From positions 9,240,634 through 9,304,633 of the forward strand of contig CP154954.1 of NCBI GenBank assembly GCA_039621445.1: 64,000 bases of DNA. Direction: 5' to 3'. This DNA comes from Euglena gracilis (taxonomy: Eukaryota). The position numbers and the translations under genes were made by a program. The notes under the pieces are model-generated. The model worked only from the letters and a program-made list of their open reading frames with translations, was not told where the DNA came from and did not search any database. Shown piece by piece: positions 56,501 to 59,500 of this stretch (position 1 is the stretch's first letter; each line of letters begins with the position of its first letter).

Positions 56501-59500
56501 GCCTTGTCCGGCGGCAAGCACCTATGGTCATCCAAATCCTGGACCCAGTCCCAGATCCAGTCACGCCCGGTCACACCCGGTCATGCCCCCGGTCACGCTC
56601 AGTCACACCCGGTCCCGGTCACACCCGGTCAATCCCAGTCACAGCCGTCGGTCATTTCATAGGTGCTTGTCCGGCGGGGCGTTGTTCTGCCCCTGCTTCT
56701 CCTTCCGCGCCTTGCGGGGGTCCACCGCAGCGGCCTGGGCCGCGGGCAGGGCCCCGGGGTGGGGGTCTGGAAGGGAGGGACACGTGCCACGGGGCCCGTC
56801 ATCCATCTACCCCCCCCTTGTCGTACGACCGGGTTCCTGCAACCTGTGACCGGGGGGGGGGGGGTCGTAACACCCCCATAACCTGTTTAAAACCTGTTTC
56901 GGACCGGGGGGGGGGTTGGGTGAGCGTTCACAATGACAAATCAAAAATAGCCGCCTTCTTCTTCCATTTCTGGCAACACATCAATTCAAAACTTCTTGTG
57001 TGATGCTGGGAGATTTGGAAAAACTGGCATTGCAACTGACGTTGCGATGGGGTGTGGACTTGGAGGTTATTATTTTGGACACTGCGCACAACTATAACAC
57101 TGTGCTCGAAAGTTGTCACCTGATAAGCGCGCAGGAGCATGGGATACAGCTTCGGGAGGCTGTGGTGGGGGGGGGATGTGTCTGTCACACGCTTGAGACA
57201 TGGTTCAATGACTAAACGCTTTGGAAATTTCCCCATATGGTGGTCCCCCACCAAGTGCCAGTGCCGGTGGTGGCTCTGCGCAGTGGCTGCAGCAGCTTTG
57301 GGAGGTCGAAGCGGATCACCCGTTCCAGGCGTTTCGGGGGGAGGGCCGGGAGCCGCCTCGTGCATCGGCAGAGGGATTCGCCGGGCGGGGTTTGGGCTTG
57401 CAACAGCGAGGCTGACCAGGTCGCAGGGTGGGCTGCATACGAGGCGTGAAGGGGCCTATGGGTGGCTGCCTCCCACTCAAGCATTCAGTCCTTCACTCAA
57501 TCACCATCCTTGCAGCTTGTGTTTGGACAAGTGAGCCACACCCACCCACCCCCCAGGCAAGTTGTGACCCCAAAAAATTGTCAAGTGCATTCCACCCACG
57601 TGACAATTTCCGCCTTTAAAAGGGAGGGTCGGAAATAATCCCTCCCCCCCAAATAATACAACCCCAAGTATCCAAATTTTATGTACGTCACCCAGAAAAA
57701 TTTAATCCCCCAAAAAACACTCCGGACGTTCTTCAAATCCCACTCGTATATAAAGCCAGCTGGCTTTAAATTTGGGGGCAAACGATTTGGTATTATTGGG
57801 GGGGGGGGGGTATCTGGACTGTGGTGCTACAGAGGTTCGACGTGGAGCGCTGGGGTGCGACCGAGCCCTCTGCAGGATGTTCTCCCCACCCTTCTTCGCC
57901 TCCTTCTCCAAATCCGCCATCTTGGGGAACTTCGACATGTGCACCTGCGGACTGTCGAAGAACGCCTTGTACTGCGCCGCGCTGGGGAAATCCGCCGCCG
58001 TCCGCGGGGGGCCCCCTTTTGTGGGGAGGGCAAGGGAGACGGTAAGTGTTTGCGGGCATGTTGGCGGGTTTTGCCGATTTTGACGTTTGAGAATAACCAC
58101 GAGGTGAATCACCTTCCCTCACTATCAGGAGAGTTGTTTTTTTTTGGTGGGCATCCGCGGCAAACCATTCATTTTGGGGTGCCAAAATGGCCGAGTTGTG
58201 GAGATTCTTTACCCCATACCTTGGTCAAAAAGGATGGTGTGGTTTGTATCATTCAGTCAAGAAATGTTTGGTTGATGCGACGTTGATGCAAAATCAAATA
58301 CATATAATGCAATTAGTTTTGGCACACAAAAAAAAACATGTTCCCACTGAGTGTTGCTTGACAAGAAGAGTGCGGTGAGCAGGGGGTGGCAAGAAAGGGT
58401 CCCTCCAGTTTGTACTTGGTGGCGACCTCCGAAAATATGGGATCCATATTGTCAGCGCAACCTGTCCGACTCGGGCAAGCGTATTCTGTGCCGCAATCCA
58501 TAAAAAATGGCGGGTATCACGTCAATCCCACAGAAACAGGCGTTTCCCGTTTCGAAAATTGCTCTGCAAGAATCTCAATGTCATGAGTGAATGCTTCAAC
58601 CTTCAAAGAAGAATCAATCTCCAAAATGTCTTCGACAGAAAAGCATGGGGAATGTCATAATTCTGCGAGTGCACAGTTGAGCGACGTGGTAGATTATCTC
58701 ATTGACCCCGTTTTTCTGATGAAATGTTAGGTGCAAAATGTGCCGTCCTCACACGGGGTGTTCATTCAGAGAAGAGTGCTTGACAGAACCTAAAAATTAG
58801 CGTTTTCCGACCTGCCAGCGCCCCGTTTTGGGCCCGAACCCAATTAATTTTGTGTCAAAAACGAGTCAAAAAAAGTCGAAAGAAATCGAAAAAAAATTTA
58901 AACTGCAATCTGCGTAATTTGTAAGTCTTTTCGGCCTTCCATTATGTGCAAGACCCTTTAAGAGCTCAGCACTATTCAAAACCTGGTTGCCGCTGGGTGC
59001 CATACCATCATTAGCCTGCCCCCTCCAGCGTGAGGCACCGGCGAGCTTCCCACGCAGCTCTGCCAGGCGGCGGGCGGCCAGCATCTTCTTCTTCGCATCG
59101 CCCTTCCCGAAGAAGGCCGGGATCTTCTCCCGCATCGTTCCCAGGCTTCCATTTCCATTTGGCCCCTGGGCGGTGAAGGTTCCCCCTCCCCCCCCCCCAC
59201 AATTCTTTACCGACCCCCGGGGGGGAGGGGGGTCACTCCACTCTTCGAAAAACCAGTCAGTCATTTTTTTGGGAAACCAGCAAGTCACTAACTCCCCCCC
59301 ATTTATAACGACCCCCCATTTATAACGACCCCCCACCCATAACGACCCATTCAGAATTCCACCAGGAGAAAAACACCCATGTCGGGAAGCTGCATGCAAA
59401 GCGCAAAGACCCATGAGCGTTCGTGCTGGGACGGGTTTATTTGAAGTACGAGCGGATAGACCCTCAGAGGGGGGGAGTGGGGGGGACATGCCTGCAAGGG

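What the first reader, a model, noticed from the sequence alone, without database searches (positions are those of the whole stretch)
56507..56677. A hAT-like MITE that is exactly a non-conventional intron (introner with intact TIR and TSD)
Seen: a 155-bp element (56515-56669) with a perfect 12-bp TIR and a perfect 8-bp TSD (minus strand CCGCCGGA) sits in coding sequence of the EHD-like gene. The other introns here pair +4 with -6. Applying that rule gives an intron of 56672-56510: 3 nt of the first TSD, the element, and 5 nt of the second TSD. This removes exactly the element plus one TSD and restores the frame without a scar ([14 protein letters not shown]). The same TIR occurs with its own perfect TSD at 25712-26940, so the family has been mobile. 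Established: hAT elements make 8-bp TSDs and often begin CAG/TAG, and a transposon origin for euglenid introns has been suggested in general terms. Inference: these MITEs act as spliceosome-independent introners whose insertions into exons are excised precisely from RNA.
Basis: partly seen in the sequence, partly recalled or inferred. Interest (0 to 1): 0.95.

Follow-up and report, generated by a model that had tools for sequence, protein, structure and literature searches.

The report
Jumping DNA that becomes an intron
In the alga Euglena gracilis a small transposon has landed inside a protein-coding exon and is very probably cut out of the RNA without a scar, and its end geometry may explain the unusual splicing code of Euglena's odd introns.

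Summary
Observation confirmed. The window is Euglena gracilis. A 155-bp element (56515-56669; perfect 12-bp TIR, perfect 8-bp TSD) interrupts a conserved exon of an EHD-like GTPase gene. A second element with the same TIR and its own 8-bp TSD lies at 25712-26940. A homologue (83% identical) reads straight through the site, matching the product of removing 163 nt; retention gives a stop. No scarless register has GT/GC-AG ends; only 56672-56510 gives the +4/-6 stem seen in the gene's other introns. RNA contig and depth arithmetic favour splicing, but no junction read was displayed. Window-wide, CA...TG inverted repeats carry direct repeats specifically of 8 bp, often with CAGG ends like the nonconventional-intron consensus. 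So the 3-nt plus 5-nt spacers of that splicing code equal one 8-bp TSD. A MITE origin was proposed in 2014, and one young intron with 8-nt repeats was reported in 2016. I found no paper naming a family or the 3+5=8 link. hAT membership is untested (no transposase), the ends are CAA/TTG rather than the tested CDG/CHG code, and older introns show no clear TSD remnant.

The parts
56515..56669 (.). E1: 155-bp non-autonomous TIR element (MITE); interior with degenerate 10-bp tandem units
56658..56669 (-). 12-bp TIR at the 5' side of the pre-mRNA intron (intron positions +4 to +15)
56515..56526 (+). 12-bp TIR at the 3' side (ends at intron position -6)
56670..56677 (-). 8-bp TSD copy 1: first 5 nt exonic, last 3 nt form the intron's 5' spacer
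56507..56514 (-). 8-bp TSD copy 2: first 5 nt form the intron's 3' spacer, last 3 nt exonic
56510..56672 (-). Predicted 163-nt nonconventional intron; the only one of 13 equivalent registers with a +4/-6 stem (12 bp) and pyrimidine|purine at both ends
   Evidence: splicing inferred
56673..56741 (-). Exon half upstream of the insertion
   Evidence: 25 of 27 residues identical to P0153 over 56746-56666
56409..56509 (-).
57282..63414 (-). Ten upstream exons of the EHD-like dynamin-family GTPase gene (E. gracilis EG_transcript_14648), separated by nine introns with +4/-6 stems
25712..26940 (.). E2: 1229-bp element with the same 12-bp TIR and its own 8-bp TSD (25704-25711, 26941-26948); non-coding flanks; interior unrelated to E1; longest stop-free frame 114 codons
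61037..61383 (.). Another CA...TG element with a perfect 8-bp TSD, nested inside intron 61712-60999; its right end is a loose-end site with diverse flanks in all four runs
52208..52495 (.). CA...TG element with a perfect 8-bp TSD, non-coding flanks
50873..51906 (.). CAGGG-ended element with a perfect 8-bp TSD, non-coding flanks
38900..39382 (.). CAG-ended element, TSD 7 of 8
23129..23374 (.). CAGG-ended element, TSD 7 of 8
5924..6249 (.). CAGGG-ended element with a perfect 17-bp TIR, TSD 7 of 8

Best explanation
E1 is a young non-autonomous cut-and-paste DNA transposon (MITE) of an 8-bp-TSD superfamily, most likely hAT-like, that inserted into a coding exon of the E. gracilis EHD-like gene. 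It is tolerated because Euglena's nonconventional splicing removes it from the pre-mRNA. Shown: TIR, TSD, a second insertion with the same TIR, the exonic position, and that removing the element plus one TSD gives the ancestral protein. Inferred: the TIRs pair in the RNA, and the machinery cuts 3 nt before the stem and 5 nt after it. Because 3+5 equals the TSD length, the exon keeps 5 nt of the first TSD and 3 nt of the second, which is exactly one target site. Such an element can therefore become a scarless intron in either orientation whenever the TSD base that starts the next exon is a purine (inference from the published code). The element works as an introner that needs no GT-AG signal.
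For: TIR and TSD are perfect, and E2 has an independent TSD. Homologue P0153 (83% identical to P0002; 649 aa on a 2056-nt contig) aligns to the spliced model over 55 residues with no gap, score 221, against 200 and a stop after 43 residues for retention. The Rhabdomonas homologue is also colinear but weakly (background rate 0.027 for the 7 discriminating residues). All 9 introns defined by P0002, plus 1 inferred, have a register with +4/-6 pairing and a purine starting the next exon; +4..+6 is CAG in 6 of 10. 0 of 13 scarless registers have GT/GC-AG ends. RNA-like contig X15 record 5 (890 nt, depth 113) has coordinates that match the spliced exon model at both listed pieces. It leaves 84 nt after the upstream exon half. 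The spliced model explains 6.8 of the 10.2 depth in bin 56162-56442, the retained model 0. Raw RNA run X21 has 334 covered bases in bin 56443-56723, against 371-431 expected if spliced and 882-1026 if retained. Proline-rich coding-like segments continue downstream, like the tail of P0153. In a TSD-blind test, 6 of 271 CA...TG inverted repeats have a flanking repeat at 8 bp and 0 at 5-7 or 9-12 bp; the other 15 end dinucleotides have 0-1 at 8 bp.
Against: No junction read or joint at 56509/56672 was listed: 15 joints were shown and 266 hidden, swamped by repeat contigs at my loose settings. X21 depth there is only about 3, so the depth test rests on a few reads, and X24 had almost no coverage of the exons. 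In X15, 31 of the 78.7 depth in the element's bin is unexplained under the spliced model (24 under the retained model). The stem starts CAA/TTG, outside the tested code N3-CDG...CHG-N5-6|R, where single substitutions in CAG or CTG abolished splicing (PMC12501133); those substitutions broke pairing, and 4 of 10 other introns here are also non-CAG. P0002 ends before the site. E1 and E2 share only the 12-bp TIR. No empty allele was seen: DNA run X3 also carries the element's upstream end (56624-56811). No transposase was found in the 20 of 86 long frames scanned.
Confidence: 0.8

Rival explanations
1. The insertion is not spliced efficiently. This allele is a damaged or truncated copy (stop at 56659-56657) or is spliced only partly, and the gene is served by another allele or paralogue.
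For: The CAA/TTG ends lie outside the tested code. No junction was listed. The E. gracilis reference protein stops just before the site. A close paralogue exists (P0232). The downstream tail is low-complexity and might be dispensable.
Against: X15 and X21 arithmetic favours the spliced form. The downstream exon half is covered by RNA at about the same depth as its neighbours (3.14 against 3.65). The element's upstream end is also present in a DNA run that differs from the window at many sites. The frame downstream is intact and still resembles the homologue.
Confidence: 0.1
2. The intron arose by double-strand-break repair that captured a fragment and left an 8-nt direct repeat, as proposed for the young E. 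agilis gapC intron; the inverted ends were selected afterwards for splicing.
For: PMC4770533 reports an 8-nt repeat at a newly gained nonconventional intron and reads it as break repair. E1's interior has no match elsewhere in the window.
Against: The same perfect 12-bp TIR with its own 8-bp repeat occurs at a non-exonic site (E2), where no splicing selection is expected. At least six more CA...TG elements have 8-bp repeats. Repair would not be expected to give one fixed length (inference).
Confidence: 0.04
3. The element is removed, in whole or in part, by the ordinary spliceosome using cryptic GC/GT donors and AG acceptors, leaving a changed protein.
For: 28 frame-restoring GT/GC...AG options exist around the element.
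Against: All 28 delete or add residues relative to the homologue, and 25 use a GC donor. Only 1 of the 9 P0002-defined introns has a GC-AG register.
Confidence: 0.06

Closest known systems
Euglenid nonconventional introns (PMC3935182, PMC4770533, PMC12501133)
   Same: No GT-AG ends; terminal stem from +4/-6; 3-nt and 5-nt spacers; pyrimidine|purine at both junctions; CA/TG at +4,+5 and -7,-6.
   Different: Here the intron is still an intact transposon with a perfect TIR, a perfect TSD and a sister insertion. Position +6/-8 is A/T, not the usual G/C.
Recently gained intron 4 of E. agilis gapC, strain ACOI 323 (PMC4770533, passages and part 2 of 5)
   Same: A young nonconventional intron with an 8-nt direct repeat at its junctions.
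   Different: There the empty site is known from other strains and the authors invoked break repair, with no element family named in the text I read. Here a TIR family is identifiable, but the empty site is known only from a homologous protein.
Introners of Micromonas, Fritillaria, Amoebophrya and Polarella (review PMC11282704, passages; PMC12130899, passages)
   Same: MITE-like DNA transposons with TIR and TSD whose insertions into exons become introns, with the TSD used for clean removal.
   Different: In the Micromonas and Fritillaria cases described, splice sites come from the element or the TSD and the spliceosome removes the intron. Here both cuts fall inside the TSD copies at a fixed distance from the TIR stem, with no dinucleotide signal. 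'Euglen' does not occur in the main text of PMC12130899.
hAT-superfamily MITEs (features recalled; the source paper was not held)
   Same: 8-bp TSD; short TIR of 12-17 bp; subterminal short repeats; neighbouring elements begin CAGGG, fitting the recalled end consensus YARNG.
   Different: E1 and E2 begin CAAGC, with C at base 5; no transposase was seen; P-type elements also make 8-bp TSDs with CA ends (recalled).

Membership tests
MITE / non-autonomous TIR transposon | Short, non-coding, terminal inverted repeats | tested here: met
   155 bp, 12-bp perfect TIR; no Rfam match
MITE / non-autonomous TIR transposon | Target-site duplication of fixed length | tested here: met
   8 bp at E1 and E2; peak at 8 bp for CA...TG repeats in the window
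MITE / non-autonomous TIR transposon | Many near-identical copies in the genome | tested here: inconclusive
   No second full copy in the window. X3 summed contig depth over the element's bin is 7923 against 153-335 in several nearby bins, which is not a copy number. No whole genome was available to search.
hAT superfamily | 8-bp TSD | tested here: met
   the feature itself is recalled and is not unique to hAT
hAT superfamily | TIR end consensus YARNG (recalled) | tested here: inconclusive
   E1 and E2 CAAGC match 4 of 5 positions. Of 6 other elements, 3 (5924, 38900, 50873) fit at both ends and 3 do not. The consensus was not confirmed in a paper (one search found none).
hAT superfamily | Cognate hAT transposase | not testable with these tools
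   None in 20 of 86 long frames of the window; the rest of the genome could not be searched
Euglenid nonconventional intron | No GT/GC-AG ends | tested here: met
   0 of 13 equivalent registers
Euglenid nonconventional intron | Terminal stem starting at +4/-6 with 3-nt and 5-nt spacers, purine at next exon start | tested here: met
   12-bp stem, next base G
Euglenid nonconventional intron | CDG...CHG motif of the tested code (found in 61.2% of annotated E. agilis NC introns per PMC12501133) | tested here: not met
   CAA...TTG. The motif is common but not universal; 3 of the 10 other introns here also lack the CDG form (CCG, CGC, GGG, GAG give 4 non-CAG)
Euglenid nonconventional intron | Removed from mature mRNA | tested here: inconclusive
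   Favoured by X15 and X21 arithmetic; no joint listed
Euglenid nonconventional intron | Excised as a full-length circular RNA | not tested
   Feature taken from PMC11282704
Introner | Insertion at a new position in coding sequence | tested here: met
   Homologue colinear with the empty site; whether the homologue's gene has an older intron there is unknown
Introner | Family of sequence-similar introns at many unrelated loci | not testable with these tools
   1 exonic copy among 14 candidates whose flanks were translated

The most novel reading that the evidence does not exclude
Euglena's whole nonconventional splicing code is the RNA image of an 8-bp-TSD transposon insertion. CAG(G)/(C)CTG is the transposon end, the 3-nt and 5-nt spacers are the two parts of the TSD, and the matching pyrimidine|purine rule at both junctions follows from the duplication. 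The machinery would then be a dedicated system that excises these transposons from RNA without a scar. Still-active families would be the source of an intron class that makes up 71.8% of E. agilis introns (PMC12501133).
Probability: 0.4. Interest if true: 0.92.

Novelty: new variant of a known kind. Interest (0 to 1): 0.72.

Why it matters
The origin and removal mechanism of euglenid nonconventional introns are stated open questions (PMC6221363, PMC12501133, passages). This locus turns the general MITE hypothesis into a concrete, countable prediction: young nonconventional introns should carry a repeat of exactly 8 nt, split 5|3 across each junction, and belong to CA...TG transposon families. 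It explains why the spacers are 3 and 5 nt, and it reinterprets the published 8-nt repeat of the E. agilis gapC intron as a TSD. It would also show an intron-creating route that bypasses GT-AG signals, and it points to what the unknown splicing factor should recognise.

Tried and rejected
No RNA holder was listed for the stretch by the run index; RNA runs came by species label or as guesses. The single read lay used likeness 90 and share 3, so repeat contigs of the DNA run crowded the joints table and the decisive joint could not be seen. A TIR-gap-TIR pattern scan of metagenome contigs gave 1 locus, L001, which is a long palindrome with no TSD and an unrelated interior; rejected. A homologue search with the downstream exon alone found nothing among 88 candidates. 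P0001 is a genomic read-through frame and is uninformative. E2 as an exonic intron was rejected: neither strand has coding flanks on both sides. The pair 9508-15385 and other long, weak hits of the relaxed scan were treated as chance. An alternative 171-nt removal using CGG/CCG in the TSDs changes the frame. Remnant TSDs in the ten older introns were tested: 1-5 of 8 matches each, 29 of 80 in all against about 20 expected at a base match rate of 0.25 and before allowing for local GC. That is no clear signal, so this window does not support the general-origin claim; the intronic halves are free to decay. Anchored searches for partner ends of the repeats ending at 56810, 58988, 59263-59270, 58799 and 63555 found none. 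The stem registers of introns 1-9 were chosen by me for +4/-6 pairing among those giving the P0002 peptide, which is partly circular. Fold z-score of the intron region is only -1.93.

Full report
Observation. E1 spans 56515-56669 (155 bp) with a perfect 12-bp TIR and a perfect 8-bp TSD. E2 spans 25712-26940 (1229 bp) with the same TIR and a different, perfect 8-bp TSD. The chance of such a repeat beside a given TIR pair is about 1.6e-5. E1 and E2 share only the TIR; both carry about 10-bp tandem units inside, so they look like two non-autonomous families served by one transposase (inference). On the coding strand the junction repeat is 12 nt, because the exon happens to continue with CAAG.

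Host gene. One exon is 100% identical to EukProt EG_transcript_14648 of Euglena gracilis. The protein, P0002, has Dynamin_N, EHD_N and DUF5600 domains and maps to ten minus-strand exons between 63414 and 57308. It is cut off before E1. All 9 introns it defines have a register with a stem starting at +4/-6 and a purine opening the next exon; 1 of the 9 also has a GC-AG register. A tenth intron (57281-56742) was inferred the same way and agrees with the homologue. Positions +4..+6 are CAG in 6 of 10 and CCG, CGC, GGG and GAG in the rest. I picked the registers by pairing, so this is partly circular.

The site is coding and the scarless product is the ancestral protein. P0153, an unnamed Logan protein of 649 aa on a 2056-nt contig, is 83% identical to P0002. 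It aligns to the spliced model over 55 residues without a gap, through APP|DK and on into VF. Retention stops four codons later. The Rhabdomonas costata homologue P0004 is colinear too, but weakly; the Entosiphon homologue P0003 has diverged there. Coding-like proline-rich segments continue downstream.

How it would be cut. Thirteen registers give the same mRNA; none has GT/GC-AG ends, and only 56672-56510 puts the TIR stem at +4/-6 with pyrimidine|purine at both junctions. The stem forms in the predicted fold. The 28 canonical options that restore the frame all alter the protein. Against this reading, the ends are CAA/TTG, while knock-in tests defined N3-CDG...CHG-N5-6|R, found in 61.2% of annotated E. 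agilis nonconventional introns (PMC12501133, parts 2 and 3 of 6).

RNA evidence. Four runs were laid on 55600-64000. The joint at E1 was not among the 15 joints shown; 266 were hidden. Indirect evidence favours splicing. Contig X15 record 5 (890 nt, depth 113, RNA by guess) matches the spliced exon model at both listed pieces (62807 at 191, 62731 at 267, 58001 at 556), and the model predicts five other exon bins to within 0.4 depth units. It leaves 84 nt beyond the upstream exon half. Spliced, these reach 56426 and explain 6.8 of the 10.2 depth in bin 56162-56442; retained, they explain none. In the element's own bin neither model explains all the depth (47.5 or 54.3 of 78.7). Raw run X21 covers 334 bases in that bin, against 371-431 expected if spliced and 882-1026 if retained, but at a depth of about 3. 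X24 barely covered the exons. DNA run X3, which differs from the window at many sites, carries the element's upstream end, so no empty allele was seen.

A wider pattern. The window holds at least six more CA...TG elements with 8-bp TSDs (5924, 23129, 38900, 50873, 52208, 61037), most ending CAGG with a shared TTAAG-like motif. Blind to TSD length, 6 of 271 CA...TG inverted repeats have a flanking repeat at 8 bp and none at 5-7 or 9-12 bp; the other 15 end dinucleotides have 0-1 at 8 bp. A relaxed scan gave 17 for CA at 8 bp against 1-7 for the others. Of 14 candidates whose flanks I translated, only E1 is exonic. These ends match the published intron consensus CAG(G)/(C)CTG at +4 and -6 (PMC4770533), and the 3-nt plus 5-nt spacers add up to the TSD length. 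That is the core inference: the splicing code and the insertion geometry coincide, so insertions can be born as scarless introns. Cause could run either way: the machinery evolved to remove these elements, or elements matching an older code were favoured. The ten older introns keep no clear TSD remnant (29 of 80 matches).

Comparison with what is known. A MITE origin was proposed in PMC3935182 (passages, and part 3 of 7) and repeated in PMC6221363 (passages), PMC12501133 (passages) and PMC12621601 (passages). The review PMC11282704 (passages) calls the stems TIRs and notes TSD-like repeats; its Fig. 3D, which I could not see, may already draw the TSD across the spacers. PMC4770533 (passages, and part 2 of 5) reports a strain-specific new intron with an 8-nt repeat, attributed to break repair; its Table S3 was not seen and bears on the 5|3 split. 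PMC12130899 (passages) does not mention euglenids in its main text; PMC12455990 (term search) has no hAT, TIR or MITE mention. Ten searches gave no paper whose listing or passages name a transposon family as a euglenid intron or link 3+5 to an 8-bp TSD; the library lacks most subscription journals, including the 2021 circular-RNA paper. hAT and P features are recalled, not read.

Verdict. A real, young MITE in an exon that very probably works as a nonconventional intron (0.8). It works like an introner; it is not shown to be a hAT, and one motif of the tested splicing code is not met. It is a new variant of a known kind: the idea is in print, but this concrete case and the 3+5=8 geometry make the origin question directly testable. 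Interest 0.72.

Noticed in passing
window 5924-6249, 23129-23374, 38900-39382, 50873-51906, 52208-52495, 61037-61383: A group of CA...TG TIR elements with 8-bp TSDs and a shared CAGG-N5/6-TTAAG-like end motif. Those nested in introns present the same signals as introns and might be spliced out on their own.
   Followed up: partly
window 56810-56917, 58691-58989, 59214-59821, 63555-63600: Very high-depth repeats inside introns of the EHD gene, with sharp ends and diverse flanks in RNA and DNA runs; no partner TIR or TSD was found. 56812-56916 is replaced by other sequence in run X3.
   Followed up: partly
window 3832-4680 +: Retrotransposon RNase H fragment (Pfam RT_RNaseH, E 7.7e-16).
   Followed up: no
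window 30149-32420 -: Exons of an alpha/beta-hydrolase-like gene (weak Abhydrolase_6 match; coding-like segments); E2 lies downstream, between coding-like segments at about 27942 and 25622.
   Followed up: no
window 62058-61747 -, 59075-58451 -, 58406-58003 -, 57873-57336 -: Four introns whose stems begin CCG, CGC, GGG and GAG rather than CAG; three fall outside the CDG form by their first or second base and one by its third.
   Followed up: partly
L001 2340-2690: Long, nearly perfect palindrome built of short repeats in an unrelated AT-rich contig; contains the 12-bp motif by coincidence.
   Followed up: no
window 55600-63582: DNA run X3 differs from the window by roughly 1-2 letters in 100 in unique contigs, and RNA run X21 shows both letters at 63068 (4 of 11 reads), so strains or alleles are diverse.
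   Followed up: no
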